DNA from: Asterionella formosa
Lineage: Eukaryota
Assembly: GCA_002256025.1 (NCBI GenBank)
Contig: NKIB01012547.1
Location: 56,587-76,586 of the forward strand
Direction of reading: 5' to 3'
DNA length: 20,000 bases
Shown here: piece after piece, positions 1-20,000 of the stretch
Position numbering within the stretch: the stretch's first letter is position 1
Layout of the letters: each line of letters opens with the position of its first letter
Translations under genes and position numbers: made by a program
The notes under the pieces: generated by a model
Database searches by the model: none
Seen by the model: the letters and a program-made list of their open reading frames with translations, nothing else
What the model was told of the DNA's origin: nothing

Positions 1-679
1 GCGACATCCCGAAAACAAAGAAGAGTATTCCTACTTGCTTTTCACTGTATCCTTTAGACACAATCAGAAAGGCGCTTTGCATATTGATCTGCGAAAAGAA
101 GTACGAGTGTATCAGATGAAGTGCATGGACCAGCATTGCCTTCCTTCCATACACGATTGAGTGCTCGTTGCCGTACCATTGTTAAGCCATCGCGCAGTTC
201 TCCAAGAAACAAAGCCGCCCATCGCAGAGCGCCTTTGGCATCATCTGCCTTCGGTCGAAGTTTTGGTAAAATTGCCATGGTTCTCAATGCAATCAACTTT
301 GAGGTCGACTTCGATAAAGTGAGAAGCGGCAATCGTCCAATTGAAGACTTTAATGACTAGACTACCCAGCGTCTTGGACCCATTATTTGTACCACCTGCT
401 ACCACTGGTTTATTTAGAGATGAATCCAATAACCGCTATGCCCGTACATAGATTTGGTCTCGACAACTGGCCAGCGTGGACTTGACTGCCCGGCTGGGGA
501 TGACGTTGAGTTTTCCGTTGAGATCATTGAATGTCAATGGCGATGTATACTGTAGTTACAAAGCAGGCCAGCAAGGAGGGGCCTCTGAATATCCTGCCAG
601 TTCGTGCAGCTCGTACACGTTCATTCAACCGTTGGAATCTGAAGCACGTGTAGTTAACTGCCATACGTAAGAGTGTTTC

Positions 680-842
680 CTGGTACCAGGTACCTGGTAC
701 CAGTAGGTAACGGGAGTGTTCCACAAACAGATAATGTTACGGGGGGGACATACCGGTACTCTATGATACCAAGGTACCCAGTACCAGTACCTGACAGTAT
801 CAGGTCGGAATTATCACATGTCGCATGCCACATACCGGTAGT
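680..842. repeat. GGTACC/TACCGGTA palindromic low-complexity cluster
   Basis: Perfect 24-bp palindrome CTGGTACCAGGTACCTGGTACCAG at 680-703, plus further TACCGGTA, GGTACC and GTACCAGTACC copies. Confidence 0.8.
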
Positions 843-4153: not shown

Positions 4154-4705
4154 NNNNNNNNNNNNNNNNNNNNNNNNNNNNNNNNNNNNNNNNNNNNNNN
4201 NNNNNNNNNNNNNNNNNNNNNNNNNNNNNNNNNNNNNNNNNNNNNNNNNNNNNNNNNNNNNNNNNNNNNNNNNNNNNNNNNNNNNNNNNNNNNNNNNNNN
4301 NNNNNNNNNNNNNNNNNNNNNNNNNNNNNNNNNNNNNNNNNNNNNNNNNNNNNNNNNNNNNNNNNNNNNNNNNNNNNNNNNNNNNNNNNNNNNNNNNNNN
4401 NNNNNNNNNNNNNNNNNNNNNNNNNNNNNNNNNNNNNNNNNNNNNNNNNNNNNNNNNNNNNNNNNNNNNNNNNNNNNNNNNNNNNNNNNNNNNNNNNNNN
4501 NNNNNNNNNNNNNNNNNNNNNNNNNNNNNNNNNNNNNNNNNNNNNNNNNNNNNNNNNNNNNNNNNNNNNNNNNNNNNNNNNNNNNNNNNNNNNNNNNNNN
4601 NNNNNNNNNNNNNNNNNNNNNNNNNNNNNNNNNNNNNNNNNNNNNNNNNNNNNNNNNNNNNNNNNNNNNNNNNNNNNNNNNNNNNNNNNNNNNNNNNNNN
4701 NNNNN
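4154..4705. other. Assembly gap (N run)
   Basis: 552 consecutive N. Confidence 1.
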
Positions 4706-7192: not shown

Positions 7193-7426
7193 GGTGTATG
7201 TGGTGATATGATGTGATGGGAAGGGAAGGGAAGCTAGGAGGTACCTGGTAGCAGGATTGGTCGTCTAGATTCATGCAAGCAAATCGAATACTCCAGTTAT
7301 TGTCGGAGACATGTCGAACCTGCGCAGCTGCTCGGAGGTTTGGCGGAGCGCGTCGATCGGATGGTGAAGGATGATAGTTCGCGTCGAGTACCGGTAGGAC
7401 CCATCAAAATACCAGTGGAGAGTATC

Positions 7427-8035
7427 NNNNNNNNNNNNNNNNNNNNNNNNNNNNNNNNNNNNNNNNNNNNNNNNNNNNNNNNNNNNNNNNNNNNNNNNNN
7501 NNNNNNNNNNNNNNNNNNNNNNNNNNNNNNNNNNNNNNNNNNNNNNNNNNNNNNNNNNNNNNNNNNNNNNNNNNNNNNNNNNNNNNNNNNNNNNNNNNNN
7601 NNNNNNNNNNNNNNNNNNNNNNNNNNNNNNNNNNNNNNNNNNNNNNNNNNNNNNNNNNNNNNNNNNNNNNNNNNNNNNNNNNNNNNNNNNNNNNNNNNNN
7701 NNNNNNNNNNNNNNNNNNNNNNNNNNNNNNNNNNNNNNNNNNNNNNNNNNNNNNNNNNNNNNNNNNNNNNNNNNNNNNNNNNNNNNNNNNNNNNNNNNNN
7801 NNNNNNNNNNNNNNNNNNNNNNNNNNNNNNNNNNNNNNNNNNNNNNNNNNNNNNNNNNNNNNNNNNNNNNNNNNNNNNNNNNNNNNNNNNNNNNNNNNNN
7901 NNNNNNNNNNNNNNNNNNNNNNNNNNNNNNNNNNNNNNNNNNNNNNNNNNNNNNNNNNNNNNNNNNNNNNNNNNNNNNNNNNNNNNNNNNNNNNNNNNNN
8001 NNNNNNNNNNNNNNNNNNNNNNNNNNNNNNNNNNN
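7427..8035. other. Assembly gap (N run) within the divergent PHGDH intergenic region
   Basis: 609 consecutive N. Confidence 1.
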
Positions 8036-10244: not shown

Positions 10245-10691
10245 CAAAATCAAAGTCAGGAATACTTACTAGACTAAAAGGCACTTCATCTTATGTTTGA
10301 GACGGAGTCTCATTTGATAGCTAGCAACTACCAAACAGGTTTTTCAAAATTCAAAATTCTAGCTCTACATTGAAACTCCTTAGCCTTGACCTGCCTACTG
10401 GTACTGGGGGGTGCCTTGCAGGAACTGTACAGAATATTTTGAAAACATACATCGACCGTCGCACTATCCAGTTGAAGGTGGGCGTATACTTGGAATTCTT
10501 GTAATCCGTGTTCATAGAATCATCGAACCGAACTAAATATGCTTTTAACTGAGACAAATAGAACAGCTGTCAACTAGTTCGATCAGGAAGTGCTAAATTT
10601 ACGCTTACCCGAGTGTCTAACTTTATGTGCAGGGGTAAGGTCCCTATCCATAGATTGAAATATACAAGCGGAGCCAGTATGGGCATTATGC

Positions 10692-11336
10692 TTAGATCTT
10701 TCCATCGTACGACTTCTGAACGTCAACCTGTCCAGAGAAGTCGTACTTAGTTTTGGCCATATCATGTCCAAGCGTGGGAGATTTCTTCCAAGCATCGGAG
10801 ATGTCAGTTCCTCGCTTGATGTAGAACTCAGTGTAGTCCTTGAACTTGCCGGCCTTGGCAACGTTCTTCTTGTACCCAGATGCCTTCTTGGTATCATCGG
10901 CGTCACGGATCTTTTGGTATTCAGCGGCAGTCAAGCCAGCAGGGACATAAGAGTTGGAGCCAATCTTGGCAACCTTGAGCTGTGATCGACGACAAAGAGA
11001 ATATGTGTTAGCAAATGATCAGCAGATAAAAACAAGAAAGGGGAATGGGCGTATTTTATCGCCGATTATGTTATCAAAGAAATATCTAGGCTCTATGAGT
11101 GTGGAAGTAGTAGCTCAACTCACATTCTTCTTATCACGAGCACCGTAGTCGTTTTGGTCCTTGACGGGGGCGAAGAGGTCCATTTCGAAAATGGATCTAA
11201 AGAGGGGCTTTTTCTCAGGAGAACTAGCTGGTTTCTTTGCCGCCATCAACTCAGTGCTGGTACGTGCACTGGGGATGGAAGGGGCAAAGGCAGAGACAGT
11301 AGCCAAGCCGGCAACGAAAACAGCGGTGACCTTCAT
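10692..11336 (-). CDS. Small plastid-targeted basic protein of unknown function; exons 11336-11124, 10979-10692; 166 aa
   Basis: MKVTAVFVAGLATVSA-FAPS is a signal peptide plus ASAFAP motif, followed by an S/T/R transit peptide. Phase-0 intron 11123-10980 (GTGAGT...TGCTAAC...CAG) joins ...GARDKKN|LKVAKIGSNSYVPAGLTAAEYQKIR... Confidence 0.85.
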
Positions 11337-12113
11337 TTTGCAAGAGTGAGAATATGGTATTTTCTTGAGTGTGAGAGGAGAATATGAGCGATCATGTGCT
11401 CGAGATTTCAACTTGTATTTTCTTTCGTCGGTAAGACGGAACTTCAGACGACAAGAATACCGTCCCAACTTTAGAGACCTACGAAGAAAGATACTACATG
11501 ATGTCAACGAGTGAGAGAAATATTCGACTGGATTCTTAACAAATATTGTATATCCGGGTGTTCTTGAGCATATCTTTCGTTTGTTAGGCTGGCTGTGTTT
11601 GGTTCAAAAGGGGTATTGCATCCGTCCACATCACAATGAAGTACGAACTCGTAAGTCGGCACAGCCAAAAGAGGAATGACATATGAAAGCACTCGAATAT
11701 AATTGCCAAGACTGAAGACAATAAAATGTTCGTCTGACGAACGAGCAAAATAACCGAAGGGCCATTTCATGATCTATGTATACGCTGCCCAACTGCAACC
11801 AACTTAGGAGTTCCATCCCTTTATCAGACTCCATTCAAGAGAGCAAGAATGCTAGACGAACCAAGCTTTGTATTCCTGCATTCTTCAGTCTGGAGTACTC
11901 CGTTTCGCTCCTTTTAACTTGCCTCGCTGTCCCTGTCGCTATAAATCTTGCATCTGCCTTGCCATAACAAAAAACTTAATTTTAATATTTACTGTAACAA
12001 ATTCTACTTTGAAATGCCAATCTCACTTGACCTGCAGCATGAAACCGAGGCATTTGTCACGGAACTTACAGTTTAAGCACAGGCAAGGAAAAGATGTGTT
12101 TCCAGGCCTCCTT

Positions 12114-12597
12114 CTAGCTTTGAAACTCACGAGTATTCCTACGAACAAGCTCTTCGCTGCGTTGTCGTATTCGCTCCATAAACTTTGATTCTACCATGCC
12201 ATTGGCGTCACCCAACAAAACTCGATCTTGAGCCTGAAAAGCATCGTTGGTATTATCGCGCCAGGCTTTATTTTTTGAGTCTGTAATCATTGCTGTTAAC
12301 ATGGCCTCATTATGTGACCTCCCATAGTTTTCCTGTCGGTTTCGTTGTTCATCGTCCCATTGTTCCAACTTTATCATATTCTTCAAAAAAAGAGAAGTGA
12401 AAAAGTGAGCTAAAAACTTTCGCCAGCAAGAAGAATTGTGAAACCAGAAGTTATAAACTTACTTGGCGGCGCATAAATTGGATGTATTCCATGGAGAAGT
12501 ATCCAATTAGACCCGAAGAAACCATTGTAAACGCCAAAAATTTAGGGAAATGACGCTGCGATAGAATCGTCGCTCTGCAGAGTTCGCCCCATCCCAT
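12114..12597 (-). CDS. Hypothetical single-pass membrane protein with charged helical C-terminus; exons 12597-12463, 12380-12114; ~133 aa
   Basis: MGWGELCRAT...KFLAFTMVSSGLIGYFSMEYIQFMRRQ is joined through GTAAGT...poly-T-GAAG intron 12462-12381 (phase 0) to NMIKLEQWDDEQRNRQ...; start is in AAAATG context. Confidence 0.65.
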
Positions 12598-12740
12598 TTT
12601 TCTGCTCTTCGCTGAGATTTCATGAGCAGCGCTCAGGAGATTTACCACACGGGTAATAAGTTGTGGCATGTTTACAATAGAAGGCTGTGAGAAACAAAAC
12701 TGGGGTAAAGTGATATCGATGAGATGCAGAAGATATATTG

Positions 12741-13005
12741 CCGGTACATCTACCTGGTACTCTAAATGACTCAATAATTGTAACAAAAGAAACATTGATG
12801 ATACCGGTAATCATCAAGCCATCGTGGTCTCAATTTCACAACGTCATAAATTTTTATGTAAAATTCCAGTTGTCTGATACCGGGTACAAGATAACGGTAC
12901 CAGGTACTGCATTCTCTTGTCAACGTCATCCGTGAGTTCCCCCTACGGTACTGGTACCGGTACCTGGTACCAGGGCACCAGGTTTACCAACTAGTACCTG
13001 GTACC
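12741..13005. repeat. GGTACC palindromic cluster at the boundary between intact genes and the degraded block
   Basis: ggtactggtaccggtacctggtaccagg (12947-12974), ggtaccaggtac, gtacctggtacc and others. Confidence 0.8.
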
Positions 13006-13456
13006 TTGGATATCCGGAAAACGTGCTTAAAACCATTTATGGCAATAATTTTGAGTTGTTTATTAGCTAACTATCCTGAACTTACAATTTTTATTCAGAG
13101 CGCGTCATGGAAGGCCTGGCACACTTCCGTGAAGGCTTGGCTTGTGCTCGTTACCCTTGCTGCTCAAGTTAAAAGTGAATACGGTGAGCATTTGTTGCAT
13201 ATGGCTTGTTGGTTGCAACCTGAAGATCAATATAGTTGGATACGTTGGCCATAGCCTAGTATAGATTTTCTTTTGCATTTAATAATTAAGAGTAAAAAAT
13301 TGTGAGGCATACAAAAATTGATGCAAATTCTTTGATATATTTATATTGCCCTCTGCTCATTTCCCCTCAAAAGGTATGCAACATCAATCTGTTGTCATTG
13401 TTCATGAATTTGATTTTGCTGCTTGCTTCTTGTTTGCTTCGTTGCTCCGTTGTTCG

Positions 13457-13831
13457 CTATGTTAGATCGTTGACATAGGTTGCCTTGCAGAAAGTTGTGT
13501 CGAAATTGAGAGCATGGCAGTGTGTTTTAAATTGTTTGACAAGCTTCTCAACACTGATGGGGTCCGCTTCATGTGTTGTGGTGTCAACTTTGTTGTCCAT
13601 CCTGTTATGTTGTTGTTTGTCCAGATCTTTCCAAATCTTGAAGTATGCTGCGCATATATATTGTCTTGCTCGCCTTGAAAAGTGTCTTGTCCATTTTGTT
13701 GTCACCACTTTGTCTGTTGACATGCTCTCTTGCACCACAGACCTGAAACACCTCTTTGTCGTCAGAGAAACCCGAGGTTAAAAATTCTTGGTGCAACCCC
13801 AAGAATACTCGATTCACTCTCCTGCGACTTG
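13457..13831 (-). mobile_element. Degenerate C-terminal fragment of a Tc1/IS630-like (DDE_3-type) transposase
   Basis: One minus frame reads QVAGE*IEYSWGCTKNF*PRVSLTTKRCFRSVVQESMSTDKVVTTKWTRHFSRRARQYICAAY...VEKLVKQFKTHCHALNFD. Stops at 13816-13814 and 13780-13778 fall where G and Y are expected in the AGEGIEYSWGxxKNxY motif I recall from diatom DDE transposases (equivalent of the ELNPIExxW motif). The upstream catalytic part appears deleted. Confidence 0.7.
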
Positions 13832-14435
13832 AACCCCTTGTTACCTCACCCTTTTCTTCCATGAAAGCTGCTTCCTCGGCTGGTATCTGCATGCATCTGT
13901 GCATCCTTTGTTCATAGCCCATATATGATCATTTGCAGAAATCCCATCCATCTAAGACGCCATTTACAGCACTTTTTCGAATCTATATCTAAAGTGATGT
14001 ATTTATGCTACTTTTCTAAAATATTATATTACTTTTTCCGTAATTTATTCAGGTTGAACAAAAATTTATTTCAGTTATCGAAAAATTATATGATCACACC
14101 AATAAATATGTGTGTTCGTGACAATATATGTTGTCCAACTAGCCATCGCGACAGTATAAAAGCAAGATTATGCTGCTCCGCCGCAATATTGTGCTGCTTT
14201 CATCATATAATGAATGAAAGAGTCGCCAATTCCGATTCACTTATTATTTTTTCTGCTCCAACATATTTCTTTGATCTCAACTGGCGAATAACAACACATG
14301 CAAGAGGAAGATTCACACAGTAGAATTCAGCACACGTAGTAGTAGTTGCTGTTGTAGACACATTATTTAGTCATTGTTGACTGTAGAGTTTACAGTAGCC
14401 TGCCAGAACAGAAATAAAGCATCGTTGAGCATGAT

Positions 14436-15379
14436 TGCATATCGCCGTACTAGTGAGGAGTCGAACAAATTGAGATGAACTGCAATGGCCTTCTCCTTTT
14501 CAGAGCGGCTACAAATAGTCTACGGTGATAACTCTAACAAGTACAATATAGAAAACGAAGCAGAGGAAGAGCAACTGTCAACGATTGAATTCGTAAATAT
14601 TTTTAGAAACAGCTGTTGCATATTTTAACATTCAATGCATGTCCCCGTAGTAGTGAGCGAGTCAAAATCGAGATGTGCTGCAATGGCCTTCTCCTCTTCG
14701 GAGCAGCTACAAATAGTCTACAGCGATAACCTTAGCAAGCACAATATAGGAAAAGAAGGAAAGGATGAGTAGCTAAGCACAATTGAATTCGTAAATTCGT
14801 TAAGAGACAGCTGTTGCATATTTTAATATTCAGTGCATCATGTCGCCGTAGTGAGTCAAGATTGAGATGTGCCGCAATGGCCGTCTTCTCTTCGGAGCGG
14901 CTACAAATACTCTACAGCGATAACTCTAACAAGTACAATATAGAAAAAGAAGGAAAGGATGAGTAGCTGTCGACGATTGAATTCGTACAGCTGTTTAGAA
15001 ACAGCTTTTGCATATTATAACATTCAATGCATGTTGCCGTACTAGTAGTGAGTCAAAATTGAGATGTACTGCAATGGCCTTCTCCTTTTCGGAGCAGCTA
15101 AAAATAGTCTTCAGCGATAACTCTAGCAAGTACAATATAGAAAAAAGAAGCAAATGATGAGTAGCTGTCAACGATTGAATTCATAAATTCGTTTAGAAAC
15201 AGCTGTTGCATATTTTATCATTCAATGCATGTCGCTGTAGTGCTTCGAAATTGAGATTTGCCGCAATGGCATTCTCCTTTCCGAAGCAGCTATGAATAGT
15301 CTTAGGTTGTAACTTTCGCAAGCACAATATAGAAAAACAAGCAAAGAATTAGTAGCTGTCAACGATTGAATTAGTAAAT
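14436..15379. repeat. Tandem array of ~4.8 diverged copies of a ~195-bp unit
   Basis: Anchor gcaATGGC at ATG positions 14485, 14683, 14877, 15074, 15266 (periods 198, 194, 197, 192). Shared blocks include gctacaaatagtct, aagtacaatatagaaaa, acgattgaattcgta and acagctgttgcatatttt. Confidence 0.95.
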
Positions 15380-15462
15380 CAGTAATATTGGTAAGAATTT
15401 TGGCTCCTAATTCATTTGCCATTTGACAATGGTCAATTCGCCAAAATTGAAATTCATGTTCA

Positions 15463-16054
15463 CTAAACTGGAGTGAACTTCAATTGTCTTGCAAAATCTT
15501 TCATTGACCGTTTGAAATACTCGTCATATTCACTCCTAGTTTCATTTGCCACCTTGATTCTTTCATCTGTTGTCTCCACTGATTCTTCGTCTAATTTGAT
15601 TTTCTTGAACCTGTAAAAGTCCCTGTGCAGCTTTGCGTAGATCTTCTTCTTAGCCACTTTGTATTTCCTCTCGCCCTTTGCTGCAACCTCCTCGAATTTC
15701 TTAATGTAGCTCTCATCATTCATCGTCCCTTCTTTAATTTCTTCCTCTCCAAAAAGTTCTGGGGTTGCAATGTTCTGATCAATACAAGCCTTATAAATTT
15801 CACTCTTTTTCTTTATCCGAAGCTCCACATACATCAGTATCTTCATCTCTCGCTGGAAGTACCAATCTGTGGCACCCTTGACTTGGTCTGGGGGGGGGGG
15901 AAGTGGAACAATCACGTTCAAACCCTTTGCACTCTTAGTACTACCAGTTGTTATATTTGAAGTTCTTCCTGAAATAACTTGTGGAGTCTATCCACTGATG
16001 GAAGATGCCGGCCCGGAGTTGTGCTTAGTGGAAGAGAAATGGCCACTAGATCAT
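15463..16054 (-). pseudogene. Lys/Glu-rich helical protein of unknown function with S/T/G-rich N-terminus, probably disrupted
   Basis: The 152-aa open frame 15921-15463 continues upstream across a TAG at 15990-15988 into SSGHFSSTKHNSGPASSISG; a candidate ATG at 16054-16052 is one base out of frame. Confidence 0.45.
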
Positions 16055-16118
16055 TACGTATTCTAATGGCAGGCACACTTTTGTTCCCTAGCGTCACTTA
16101 AATAAAAATGTCCATCAG

Positions 16119-17463
16119 CTAGTCAATACTTTCCATGAACATCAGTTCAACAATTCCAGTTTGTTCAATTCCCCGAAGTGACTCACTTTGCTTGTGGAAC
16201 TCCAGCCAAAACAAGAAGATCGGACTTAAAGCTGATATCCAACTGCCTGCTCATGGCAGTTGTCCTTTGATGAACAACTATGGCATAAAGACTGTTGAAC
16301 CTGGCATATCCATTTGCGTCCCAGCCCCCATGGTATCTCTTTCCCTGTCCTCCAGTCCGGGTATAAACATATTTTGGTGCAGGAGTATCATCGTCATTGC
16401 CTTATGCAACCAGACATCCCAACAATTCTCCAAGACCAACAAGGAAAAAACCTAGTCAGAAACACTTACAATGTCACTGACATGCTTCTTAGCACACTGT
16501 CGTTTCCAAGACAGCTTTCGCCCAACCCTGGAATAAAAGTACTCAACTAGAAGGAAGAAAGGATGATTCTTGGCTCTTTCTCCATCAGCTGTCTCCTAGA
16601 TAGAAAAAGAACGGCTGTTGGAGATGGTATGCTTATTCAGATGAATGTGCATACCTTCACGAAAAAGTCCTGAAGTTTTGTAGATTGGAATGGAATGATT
16701 TGTTAGTAGAAAACAATGAGTATGTTTAGCAATTCAAGAAGAAATCAGGCATACCAAGTCAAGTTGTTTACTTACTAGCAAAGGCATGTTTGAGAGTGGT
16801 AACAACGGCATTTCTTTTTTCAGACATCACTTTATTAATATCATTCTTATTTGTCTACCAAACTGACTCGGAGTCCTTTTCGGTTCCCATGAATAGGCTT
16901 GGGAAAAGGGCACGAAATGAGCGTGCCAGACTAGTTGGTCCCCTTTCATCAAGGTCGATACCACCTGCGATAAACTTGACTTTTGGAAAAAGCTCAAGTT
17001 TGACCCATTGACCAACATTTCTTGTCTCTTTCCAATTCCATGGCCACCAGAAAGTTGAAGTCTTTGTTTCTCCGTTACTTCACGAAGCTCTTCGATCTCC
17101 TTTCTACTTTTCTCCAACCCAGATTGAAGAAACTCTAAGGAAAGGTTTGTTTCAATTCGCTCCCTTGTGATCAGAAATAGTCGAAATGTTTTCCTTACCA
17201 TTAGTTGATAAATTGAGACTTTCATCCACATCACTGAAGAAATCGCTGTTCTCTGCTCCAGCAATAGAGACTTCATTGTCGCTTTCAATGTCAGATGCAG
17301 AGAATGCCTCAGCCTGAGACAGCTCCTGAATATGTTTTGACATGATATCCGAAATAGCTTGCCAGAGATTTATAGGAATTGGATCTCGAACAATCCCTGA
17401 TTGATCACACATTTATTCGCAAAAGTGGACATTTTCCCTTTGGCTGATATTGAAAATGGCCAT
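16119..17463 (-). pseudogene. Spliced pseudogene of an uncharacterised diatom repeat-associated protein family (LFPKVKFI...W...KRN / SDEAFxLLVLENxW / GWxxxGxxRFNxL)
   Basis: ATG 17463; introns 17198-17135 (GTAAGG...TAG) and 16775-16670 (GTAAGT...TACTAAC...CAG). Reconstructed: WVKLELFPKVKFI...ESVW*TNKNDINKVMSEKRNAVVTTLKHAFA|RLF...SWKRQCAKKHVSDIVSVSD*VFSLLVLENCWDVW /fs/ PKYVYTRTGGQGKRYHGGWDANGYARFNSLYAIVVHQR. Stops at 17415-17413, 16857-16855, 16598-16596 and 16454-16452, and at least 2 frameshifts. The family assignment is from memory. Confidence 0.7.
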
Positions 17464-17928
17464 TTTTGGTAGTCCACCATTCTACCGGTAGACTGCTACA
17501 CTAATAATAATCAAGCATCATCACATTCAAAATTCAACAGTTACTGAATGGCGTGACAGTAAAAGGTTTAGTACTACTTCTAGTAGTACTTGCTACTAGT
17601 AGCTAGCAGCAATTCAGGGAAATCAAATCTTATGTACAAACAAGGACCAGGTATTTTATATAGTACATCCGAGTATTCGTGCGTCTTGTACTATTTATCT
17701 AGTAGGTACTAGATGCAGGTAGTAGGATTTGGACACAAAAATATTGCAACTAGCTACTACTGGCTTCCTGCCTGTTTGCCGGAACCGAAAAACGGCCAGC
17801 CATCCTCAGCACGTAACTCTGTATTTCTCTAATAATCGACTTTTTCGCAACAATTGCGTTACTCTCATATTCTCTCCTTTCTTTCTCCCTTCGAGACTTC
17901 TTTCTCGGTCAAGAACAGACCAGCCAAG

Positions 17929-19464
17929 ATGTGCGATGATTTCTGTCCTTTCGAGGATCACAGGGCTCAGTAGTATGGTGATGATGATAATATGTATCCT
18001 CATTACCATATCAAGATGAACTTCAGTGTTCCTGTCATTGCTGACCAGTTTAAGAGTACTTGCGACAGTATGGACAAGTTACTTGAGATTGGTAAATTCA
18101 AGGATTTCCTGAGAGATCCTGAATTTTCTATCAAGAAACTCTATCTTCGATTGATCAACGGGTGTGAGAATGAGTCCTTTCTCCCTCATCGCCATTGGTT
18201 GGTCCCCTTCAGTCCTGAGTCTATGAGGCTGATCCGCAAGGGATCCAGGAATCATGTGGATTATCCACTGCTCTGCCTATTTTCTTGCTTTTTTCACTCA
18301 TGTGAGCAAAAGTCTCCAGGCTTTAGGAAGATAGTACATTGGTGGCATCAATGTACGTCATTCTAATACTCATGATAGGCAGTACAAGTGGAAAGTTAGG
18401 ATCACCCAAATCCCCCTTGACATCTTCGCCACCTCTAAAATCCCTTTGAAGATCAATGAGATTATGACTTCCTTGTCTAAATCTTTTGGTAATGATTGGA
18501 ACTCCGTCGTTACCAACCAAGCTTTATACGCAAATCAGCTCCAGAAGAAACTTCATGGCAACTTCGTCATTAGTACCATTGAAGAGAAGGAGAACTTGGA
18601 GAAGAAGTTCAAGCCCATAGCTATGGTTGTTGTGGAGCAAAAAGAGTTCCCAACTCCTATTGCTTGTATTCACTATTTGGTGACAAGTAATCATAAATCA
18701 ACCCATGATTTGCACAAGCAAAAAGAACGTGCGTGGCATGGGTCAATTGCTGATCCAAGCTGCTACTTGTCTTCGTATCGATCATGAGGAGGCCTGGAAC
18801 TGTGCATACCCAGGATGTCCTTCCCAACATCAATCTGTTTTTGCGCAGGTGCTGGGCAATGCGGTTGAGTGGTATAAATCCTTGGGATTTATACACTGCA
18901 ATCCTATTCCTTGGATGGACAGGATCAATCATCCTCTTAAAAACCTTCTTCATGATGAGAGGAACAAAAACAATGGCGAAGTTGATTCATACAATTATGG
19001 TCTTGATATGCAAGAAGCAGCAAATTTCGAGACCTTTCCTATTGTGCGCTTGCGAACAAATTTAGCTGGGATTGTTCTTTCAGCCACTCATTATGATCTT
19101 CTTGATCATCAACTGGAAGAGCAAGCCTATGTGTACTCGATGTTTCTTCCAATTGGGGGTTTCATCTACAAGCAGCCAAAAGGAATGTTCGTTAAATCTG
19201 TATGCTGTCTTCATAGTCATTTATTCATTCACGCATTTCCTTTTATGAATTCATCGCCTGACAGAAGTGAAGGCAACTATCAGGTCAGAGTATCCCGGCT
19301 TGGAAGCTCCATCTTATCCGCTTGGAAAGCGTGCTAAGAGAGGCACTATACAGAAGGCTGCTTCTATAGCTACAGCAGGATCAACACAATCCCAAGTGTT
19401 ACAGACATCTGCAAATAAAAACTATCATATTTCCATGATGCATCATAGGATTGTGATCATCTGA
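17929..19464 (+). pseudogene. Frameshifted GNAT-family N-acetyltransferase-domain gene
   Basis: Three consecutive frames are joined by +1 shifts near 18331-18334 and 18705-18725 (an A5 run lies at 18720-18724). The join gives PIAMVVVEQKEFPTPIACIHYLVT...KNVRGMGQLLIQAA (GNAT motif A, RGxG) and VFAQVLGNAVEWYKSLGF (motif B, NAxxxYxxxGF). There is an extra in-frame TAG at 17971-17973. The 5' and 3' ends are uncertain. Confidence 0.65.
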
Positions 19465-20000
19465 TCATAATTTTCCGTTACATCATCTAATAATTTTGAT
19501 AAATGCCCTTGTAATTTAAATAGTAACCCTTTTGACTACATATATTTAATTTTTATAAGTATTGTTTCTATTAGATTCCTGTATTTGAATTTCTTGGTAA
19601 GGTAATGTACCAGCTAAAGTAATGTAATTTGGCTCGCCATATCCATCCGTCATCACTCCGATTTTTGCAACAACAACCAAATACTAGCATTAACAAGTGG
19701 AATGATTGTTTGCGATAACGTCTTCAATTTTTGGTCAAGTGATCATTATGTCTTTGAGTAATCGTCATGTGCAGTGAACCTATGTTTATAGTCATTCAAT
19801 TAAGAGTTTACAGAGAAGAAATCATTCAAACATGTAATGGTTCCGCACACAGCGCACATAGTAAATCTGTTTTGTCAATCACCAGCATTACAATCTCGCC
19901 AATCAACCCGTAAACAAACACATTCTACCTACTCTCATTGACATTTTCAATTCTCACCTGATACTACATCTACTATTGAGATTCAGCACAGAAGGAGATA

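What the first reader, a model, noticed from the sequence alone, without database searches (positions are those of the whole stretch)
13260..20000. Candidate decaying multi-gene DNA transposon: DDE transposase remnant + internal tandem array + unknown ORFs + divergent GNAT acetyltransferase
Seen: right of the GGTACC cluster ending at 13005, every reconstructable gene has stops or frameshifts, unlike the five intact genes to the left. Three minus-strand genes are co-oriented (17463-16119, 16054-15463, 13831-13457; the first two are only ~65 bp apart), with a 195-bp array between the last two and a GNAT gene pointing away. Known: large eukaryotic DNA transposons (CACTA/Plavaka, Mutator/VANDAL, Zisupton/KDZ) carry accessory genes, including chromatin or anti-silencing factors, and internal tandem repeats. 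Inference: this is one cargo-carrying element, and the GNAT could acetylate chromatin or element proteins to counter silencing. I know of no described diatom Tc1-like element with this gene set. No terminal inverted repeats were found in the window, and the block runs off the right edge.
Basis: partly seen in the sequence, partly recalled or inferred. Interest (0 to 1): 0.72.

Follow-up and report, generated by a model that had tools for sequence, protein, structure and literature searches.

The report
Dead acetyltransferase-carrying Plavaka transposon copy
The stretch is three old jumping elements stacked inside each other in an alga's genome, the largest being a broken piece of a 13.5-kb cut-and-paste transposon that carries its own acetyltransferase-like gene, kept under selection while the element spread, possibly to loosen the host's silencing.

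Summary
The block is not one element but a nest. Window 13949-19405 is a decayed, cut-off copy of a multi-copy ~13.5-kb PlavakaB-like DNA transposon (B; ends CATCT..AGATG, 2-bp target duplication in 4 of 6 two-ended copies). Its transposase (PF18759) lies beyond the break and is absent here. The 'DDE remnant' (13457-13831) belongs to an unrelated TA-flanked element that B split; a third repeat cuts B at 19406. A metagenome contig holds B nearly whole with open frames. Variants shared between copies show purifying selection on the GNAT core (omega 0.12 against 1.05 for private ones, p=0.0005). A sister family keeps transposase and helper gene but has an oxygenase-like gene in the middle slot. 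GNAT identity is likely, not proven (Pfam E 0.006, below cut-off; fold prediction failed); anti-silencing is inference. Cargo-bearing Plavakas are known from fungi and red algae; my searches found none from diatoms or with a GNAT. The scan noted this family before on other DNA of this genome (e1-7569521).

The parts
13001..13199 (.). Small dispersed repeat (~200 bp, unclassified), left edge of the repeat block; not part of B
   Evidence: 39 other places at 69-86% identity among 40 scored
13202..13948 (-). Element A: one end of a ~2.3-kb TA-flanked, short-TIR DNA transposon (Tc1/mariner-like), with the 3' end of its transposase (stop at 13457-13459); split by B
   Evidence: Many copies end at this terminus; TA on both sides in 5 of 5 two-ended copies; 5 copies run on past 13948 without B
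13949..19405 (.). Element B: decayed, truncated copy (about 40%) of a ~13.5-kb PlavakaB-like transposon
   Evidence: 89.4% identical to contig L153 over 4.6 kb
13949..13967 (+). Terminal inverted repeat of B (imperfect, ~19 bp, 5'-CATCT...)
   Evidence: Same sharp start with unrelated flanks at 29 distinct places; 203 pattern hits, 0 for the reversed control; other end AGATG-3'
14436..15379 (.). Subterminal tandem array, unit 191-198 bp, ~5 copies; kept and extended in non-autonomous derivatives
15463..17412 (-). Helper gene of B, three exons (17412-16776, 16669-16187, 16096-15463), 588 aa in L153; broken here by 7 frame-shifting indels; shared with sister family B2
   Evidence: Spliced frame in L153 has no internal stop; both phase-1 introns sit at matching places in B2; no Pfam family over cut-off
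17413..17928 (.). Intergenic stretch between the two divergent genes (presumed two-way promoter)
   Evidence: Inference from ATG positions
17929..19405 (+). GNAT-like gene of B: exon 1 17929-19182, predicted intron 19183-19264 (donor mutated here), then the start of a long basic/low-complexity tail cut at 19405; about 1,200 aa when whole
   Evidence: two frame-shifting indels here
18383..18899 (+). GNAT-like core (motifs KERGMG and NAVEWYKSLGF in L153)
   Evidence: PF13508 E 0.013 (169 aa) and 0.006 (trimmed 121 aa), below cut-off; ESM Atlas 0.95 to GNAT clusters; purifying selection
19406..20000 (.). Element C: start of an unrelated high-copy repeat inserted into B; the contig ends at 20000
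   Evidence: 40 of 917 candidates scored, 87-93% identical over most of its length; sharp start with unrelated flanks; other end not resolved

Best explanation
SHOWN: 13949-19405 is a dead fragment of a ~13.5-kb cut-and-paste transposon family (B) laid out as end - ~195-bp array - three-exon helper gene (-) - GNAT-like gene (+) - Plavaka transposase (-) - ~2.9 kb without a clear gene - end. It inserted into an older TA-flanked element and was later cut by a third repeat. The transposase has the CMCT-type DDE layout, the ends are CATCT..AGATG and insertion duplicates 2 bp. The helper gene and the GNAT core were under purifying selection while the family multiplied, like the transposase. A sister family keeps transposase and helper gene and has a different enzyme-like gene between them. 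INFERRED: the transposase cuts and pastes at the short ends; the helper protein is a TnpA-like partner acting on the element's own DNA, the array being its likely binding platform (non-autonomous copies keep ends and array and lose the genes); the middle gene is an exchangeable effector. For B the most likely job (my odds about 0.4) is a nuclear lysine acetyltransferase that uses its H1-like basic tail to sit on chromatin and keep the element, or its insertion site, open against CpG-methylation-linked silencing.
For: Copies and boundaries. Ends and 2-bp duplication: (4 of 6 exact, 2 with one mismatch; one empty paralogous site is 2 bp shorter). Transposase: PF18759 51.1 bits, cut-off 26.3, motifs. 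Linkage: of 27 fetched contigs with the GNAT exon, 26 also hold another part of B, 11 the helper gene, 9 transposase sequence; independent 12.9-kb contig L153 holds end, transposase, GNAT gene, helper gene and array in this order. Selection: variants in 3 or more copy groups against private ones, GNAT core omega 0.12 v 1.05 (p=0.00048), transposase 0.25 v 1.00 (p=6e-5), helper exon 1 0.15 v 0.78 (p=0.005). GNAT. Basic tail: net +32 over 190 aa, 19% Ala, 16% Lys. CpG transitions 6.8% v 2.0% elsewhere. Sister family.
Against: The GNAT call is below Pfam's cut-off, absent for the whole 412-aa exon, unsupported by NCBIfam, PHROGs, PDB sequences and phage records; no relative outside the family among 1.84 billion representatives. 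Substrate, localisation and expression are not shown: RNA-run contigs cover B evenly and show no splice joint. The distal tail shows no purifying selection (omega 1.07), nor the 94 codons after the core (0.78, few variants); helper exon 3 is not significant (p=0.066). One of the 9 'transposase + GNAT' contigs (C1132) is a B piece nested in another B piece, so that count is an upper bound. No single contig of G000 that I fetched holds all parts and both ends.
Confidence: 0.85

Rival explanations
1. The GNAT is an active acetyltransferase of the element, but its target is not chromatin: it acetylates the transposase, the helper protein or a host defence or repair factor to tune transposition.
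For: Purifying selection on the core fits any useful target; nearest Atlas clusters are small viral and bacterial GNATs, not named histone acetyltransferases.
Against: The adjoining basic, Ala/Lys-rich tail is also under selection (omega 0.34, p=0.013) and suits DNA or nucleosome binding; accessory genes of known Plavakas are mostly DNA- or chromatin-modifying types.
Confidence: 0.3
2. The domain has a GNAT-like shape or ancestry but no acetyltransferase activity (a binding or scaffold module), or the resemblance is chance.
For: Pfam 14.7-17.4 bits against a cut-off of 27; fold prediction pLDDT 39 and no fold match; Atlas hits share only 130-144 of 256 features.
Against: Both acetyl-CoA-binding motifs are present at the expected spacing (motif definitions recalled); Atlas score 0.95 with 10 of 10 best family hits in one clan and a high recognition value.
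Confidence: 0.2
3. The GNAT gene is an idle captured host fragment (Pack-type cargo) with no use to the element.
For: All genomic copies I aligned carry private damage at a neutral rate; no relatives in other organisms.
Against: Shared variants are mostly synonymous (9 v 4) whereas private ones are not (25 v 99); no host paralogue among 74 of 74 candidates, all 64% or more identical; exon 1 is open in L153.
Confidence: 0.07
4. One reading: one Tc1-like element spans 13260-20000 and the DDE remnant is its transposase.
For: The remnant does look like a Tc1/mariner-type transposase tail and its element is TA-flanked.
Against: Three separate families with sharp junctions at 13948/13949 and 19405/19406; A copies run on without B, 7 of 7 B copies run on without C.
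Confidence: 0.01

Closest known systems
PlavakaB DNA transposons of Agaricomycotina, CMCT clade (Kojima 2025, PMC12730594; abstract, passages and a few rows of Table S1 seen)
   Same: PF18759 transposase with C(2)C and H(3-4)H motifs; 2-bp duplication; CATC..GATG ends; ~10-kb-class size with an enzyme gene as cargo.
   Different: Fifth base of the ends is T, not A; host is an alga with diatom-type plastid presequences, not a fungus; cargo is GNAT-like plus a spliced helper gene, not TET/JBP.
Giant red-algal Plavaka elements with PAG1-3 (Bostrychia, bioRxiv 10.1101/2025.02.11.637652; passages seen)
   Same: Large Plavaka with several accessory genes, a tandem array next to them, mostly degenerate copies, accessory genes that move between families; one accessory gene of unknown function; proposed self-directed chromatin or DNA modification.
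   Different: 17-19 kb with methylase/SET and ParB/2OG-oxygenase genes; 'acetyltransferase' does not occur in the main text; their arrays are described as inverted-repeat units. PAG1 could not be compared with the helper gene (supplements closed).
VANDAL/VANC anti-silencing in Arabidopsis Mutator-like elements (PMC10398659, search listing only; also as cited)
   Same: Working model: an element-encoded accessory protein binds the element's own repeats and counters silencing.
   Different: Other superfamily; VANC is shown by experiment and is not an acetyltransferase (recalled); nothing of the kind is shown here.
HDP1/HDP2 in the IDM1 histone acetyltransferase complex (PMC5339849, search listing only)
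   Same: Links transposon-derived proteins with histone acetylation and anti-silencing.
   Different: Domesticated Harbinger proteins that work with a host acetyltransferase; here the acetyltransferase-like gene is inside a mobile element.
IS630/Tc1/mariner elements (for element A; family features recalled)
   Same: TA on both sides, short inverted ends, one transposase gene, ~2.3 kb.
   Different: No Pfam match was obtained for its pieces; subgroup not determined.

Membership tests
Plavaka (CMCT clade) | Transposase matches PF18759 | tested here: met
   51.1 bits, cut-off 26.3, E 1.5e-13 for the 950-aa frame of L153. The gene lies outside the window copy.
Plavaka (CMCT clade) | [quoted passage not shown] | tested here: met
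   LGDAEGLD 389, CRECDC 412, KLH 481, FHQQMH 646, GPMEK 668; motif rule; naming D391 and E671 as catalytic is inference.
Plavaka (CMCT clade) | Transposase groups with Plavaka in a tree of CMCT transposases | not tested
   No reference transposase sequences were loaded.
PlavakaB | 2- or 3-bp target-site duplication | tested here: met
   TA, TT, TG, CA exact in 4 of 6 two-ended copies; TA/TT and AA/GA in the other 2; none fits 3 bp.
PlavakaB | Termini 5'-CATCA..TGATG-3' | tested here: not met
   Termini are CATCT..AGATG: 4 of 5 bases agree. Filed as PlavakaB-like. Figure S2 of the paper, which lists termini, could not be seen.
PlavakaA | Termini 5'-TGT..ACA-3' | tested here: not met
Red-algal PAG-bearing Plavaka | PAG2 (adenine methylase + SET) and PAG3 (ParB + 2OG oxygenase) inside the element | tested here: not met
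   No such Pfam match in the frames of L153 scanned; B2 has an oxygenase-like frame by motif only.
Red-algal PAG-bearing Plavaka | PAG1 homologue | not testable with these tools
   PAG1 sequences lie in closed preprint supplements.
GNAT acetyltransferases | Profile match over a curated cut-off | tested here: not met
   PF13508 16.3-17.4 bits, cut-off 27, E 0.013-0.006; none in NCBIfam or PHROGs.
GNAT acetyltransferases | Motif A (R/Q-x-x-G-x-G/A) and motif B (N..A..Y...GF), recalled definitions | tested here: met
   KERGMG at 262 and NAVEWYKSLGF at 305 of the 412-aa exon.
GNAT acetyltransferases | GNAT fold | tested here: inconclusive
   Atlas features 0.95 to GNAT clusters; single-sequence model pLDDT 38.8 and no Foldseek match.
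GNAT acetyltransferases | Acetyl transfer from acetyl-CoA | not testable with these tools
   Needs an assay.
   Only element A is TA-flanked; it is ~2.3 kb and holds none of the other genes.
IS630/Tc1/mariner (element A) | TA on both sides and short inverted ends | tested here: met
   5 of 5 two-ended copies.
IS630/Tc1/mariner (element A) | DD(n)D/E transposase matching a family profile | tested here: inconclusive
   No Pfam hit for two C-terminal pieces; resemblance of the motif is recalled.

The most novel reading that the evidence does not exclude
Diatom-type Plavaka transposons have a swappable effector slot between transposase and a conserved helper gene, and family B fills it with its own chromatin acetyltransferase: the helper protein and the H1-like tail bring the GNAT to the element's nucleosome-length (~192-bp) arrays, where it acetylates histones and shields the element from CpG-methylation silencing. 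That would be a mobile element bringing its own histone acetyltransferase as an anti-silencing weapon, with sister families using an oxygenase (seen here) or a protease (earlier scan notes, untested here) in the same position.
Probability: 0.22. Interest if true: 0.82.

Novelty: new variant of a known kind. Interest (0 to 1): 0.52.

Why it matters
Transposon-encoded counter-silencing is shown by experiment for very few elements and inferred for TET- and SET-bearing ones. A GNAT under selection inside a recently active Plavaka family adds a new enzyme class and a new host group, and the pair B/B2 (same chassis, different enzyme) is a natural comparison. Diatoms have CG methylation whose loss releases young elements (PMC9998398, abstract), and a model species with knock-outs, so the idea can be tested directly. 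The family also spreads ~192-bp arrays through non-autonomous copies. The window copy itself is dead and ordinary.

Tried and rejected
Structure prediction of the GNAT core (pLDDT 38.8) and Foldseek on it: uninformative. Structure prediction of the B2 middle protein with a 7-row alignment (pLDDT 33): uninformative, so 'oxygenase-like' rests on conserved H-x-D and GDTVH motifs in 5 homologues and recalled motif knowledge. Relatives of the GNAT: only 4 family-like fragments; none in PDB sequences, NCBIfam, PHROGs or phage records; a viral-contig scan did not run, so a viral origin suggested is untested. Helper gene: no Atlas hit, none with a single query, two uncharacterised ~40% relatives with a profile. 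RNA: three runs with small or no word share were laid; run X1 covers B evenly, one contig runs across the predicted GNAT intron, no splice joint among the 15 of 29 joints shown; read as DNA in the library, no evidence for or against expression. A first selection count failed to merge duplicate fetches and was redone. A fifth gene in the 2.9 kb before the transposase: rejected, no frame kept across copies. Arrays 1 and 2 as relatives: rejected, alignment score within shuffles. Element A as IS3EU (TAYGG ends, 6-bp duplication): rejected, no longer duplication outside TA. Far end of element C: not resolved. Helitron reading of the hairpin at B's end: dropped once the matching inverted end and 2-bp duplications were found.
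Full report
1. What is in the sequence. The array is real: 14467-15379, period 198, 4.7 copies. A search of the own genome with 13000-20000 gave 52 matches from 40 scored candidates; the other copies began no further left than about 13944 and ended no further right than 19405. Separate searches showed that 13210-13948 and 19406-20000 belong to two other repeat families, and that 13001-13199 is a fourth, while 11400-13000 is single copy. The block is a nest.

2. Five copies run on past 13948 without B: these are the empty sites. I file it as Tc1/mariner-like on TA flanks and a recalled motif; Pfam gave no match for two C-terminal pieces.

3. Element B, ends. B starts sharply at 13949 with CATCT and unrelated flanks at 29 distinct places. 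At 19405, 7 of 7 other copies go on with the same sequence, unlike the window. Walking along them led to a Plavaka transposase and an inverted end ...AGATG. Patterns for the two ends hit 203 and 160 places with 0 for the reversed controls; many hits lie on small, redundant contigs, so these are not copy numbers. Of 6 two-ended copies 4 have an exact 2-bp duplication (TA, TT, TG, CA) and 2 have one mismatch; for one of the latter an empty paralogous site is 2 bp shorter. An in-script majority consensus was about 13.5 kb.

4. Independent whole copy. A scan of metagenome contigs with the transposase alignment confirmed 6 of 112 candidate stretches. L153 (12,916 bp) holds one end, a 950-aa open transposase frame, the GNAT gene (one frameshift in the tail), the helper gene and the start of the array, in the predicted order; it is 89.4% identical to the window over 4.6 kb. 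It may be a collapsed assembly of several copies. The transposase scores 51.1 bits on PF18759 and has the C(2)C and H(3-4)H motifs that PMC12730594 gives for this clade (passages). In G000, 26 of 27 fetched contigs with the GNAT exon also hold another part of B; all 74 candidates for the GNAT core are family members, 64% identical or more. Copy groups over 1 kb are 88.1-99.2% identical to L153 (68 groups): the window copy is among the oldest and the family was active until recently.

5. Genes. The two upper minus-strand 'genes' are one: GT-AG introns of 109 and 90 bp join three exons into 588 codons without a stop in L153, and the sister family has phase-1 introns at matching places. Splicing is predicted, not seen. 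The protein has no family; two uncharacterised proteins match its conserved exon. The plus-strand gene has a 412-codon first exon, a predicted 82-bp intron, then a basic stretch (net +32 over 190 aa) and a long low-complexity tail; it converges on the transposase. In the window the two genes carry 9 frame-shifting indels and the GNAT intron donor is lost.

6. Is it a GNAT? For: both acetyl-CoA motifs (definitions recalled), PF13508 at E 0.04, 0.013 and 0.006 as the query was trimmed (trimming was after the fact), Atlas score 0.95 with all ten best family hits in one clan, mostly viral clusters. Against: below cut-off; nothing for the whole exon; nothing; a failed fold; no relatives outside the family. 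I put the GNAT fold at about 0.8.

7. Does the element use it? After merging near-identical fetches (213 aligned pieces, 171 groups), private variants are neutral and variants shared by 3 or more groups are not: GNAT core 25 synonymous/99 non-synonymous against 9/4 (omega 1.05 v 0.12, p=0.00048); transposase 97/349 against 21/19 (p=6e-5); helper exons p=0.005, 0.04, 0.07; proximal tail p=0.013; distal tail and the 94 codons after the core no signal. Shared variants are not independent events and some may be recurrent, so the p values are a guide. C>T and G>A changes are 3.4 times commoner at CpG (6.8% v 2.0%), indirect evidence that copies were methylated; in a model diatom loss of DNMT5a depletes methylation and releases young elements (PMC9998398, abstract and section list).

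8. Chassis and slot. A second family, B2, has ends CATCTAAG, a Plavaka transposase, the same helper gene and, between them, an oxygenase-like gene instead of the GNAT. Five gene-less derivatives of B keep the ends and array 1 and add an unrelated ~193-bp array. Earlier scan notes report the GNAT family (e1-7569521), the oxygenase family and a protease-bearing family in this genome; I had B and B2 before reading them and did not test the third.

9. Mechanism. Shown: mobility of the unit, its ends, gene set, nesting order (A, then B, then C) and selection. Inferred: transposase acts at the ends; the helper is a TnpA-like partner (TnpA role recalled) that binds the array; the GNAT protein is an effector. 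My odds for its job: chromatin acetylation against silencing 0.4, other protein targets 0.3, inactive or chance resemblance 0.2, idle cargo under 0.1. The confidence of 0.85 is for the identity, architecture and functional cargo, not for the substrate.

10. Known and new. PlavakaB elements have 2-3-bp duplications and CATCA..TGATG ends and some carry TET/JBP genes; B differs at the fifth base, so I call it PlavakaB-like. Red-algal Plavakas carry three accessory genes and arrays. PMC13519894 lists Plavaka in fungi, red and green algae and moss (passages). Searches: Plavaka + diatom, 4 papers, 2 listed (one read in passages and not about diatom elements; one seen as listing); Plavaka, 16 of 20 listed, none with a diatom title; diatom + EnSpm + accessory, 1 unrelated; DNA transposon + GNAT + accessory gene, 1 bacterial review; transposon-encoded + acetyltransferase + anti-silencing, 3 listings, none on an element-borne enzyme by its abstract start. 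The library lacks most subscription papers and Repbase, and Figure S2 of PMC12730594 and the preprint supplements could not be seen; they may list CATCT ends or the helper gene.

11. Verdict. Observation partly confirmed, interpretation partly supported. New variant of a known kind; interest 0.52. Most novel reading: an element-borne histone acetyltransferase in a swappable slot, probability 0.22, interest 0.82 if true.

Noticed in passing
L156 (also L135, L136, L138, L144, L146): Sister Plavaka family B2 (transposase about 49-60% identical by the measure used) with the same three-exon helper gene and, co-oriented between them, a 458-aa gene with oxygenase-like H-x-D...GDTVH motifs and no Pfam match.
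   Followed up: partly
L104, L114, L122, L132 and contig C8526: Gene-less 4.8-7.5-kb derivatives of B keep both ends and array 1 and carry a second, unrelated ~193-bp array of up to 18 copies; two unrelated arrays with nearly the same, nucleosome-like period.
   Followed up: partly
   Followed up: no
window 679-790, 7239-7256, 12873-13005: Clusters of short GGTACC/TACCAGGTA palindromes; earlier scan notes read such words as excision scars.
   Followed up: no
window 13001-13199: A further ~200-bp dispersed repeat directly left of element A, so four repeat families abut here.
   Followed up: no
window 19406-20000: Element C is very abundant (917 candidates), begins YRTCTGCAAAT and also sits inside another B copy (L056); class unknown.
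   Followed up: partly
L141:2325, L047:3992, L046:4665: B2 copies and B copies inserted inside B: these families often nest in each other.
   Followed up: no
window 10600-11340 (minus): Small gene whose product starts with a signal peptide followed by SAFAP, the plastid-targeting pattern of diatom-type algae (pattern recalled).
   Followed up: no
window 4154-4705 and 7427-8035: Two runs of N.
   Followed up: no
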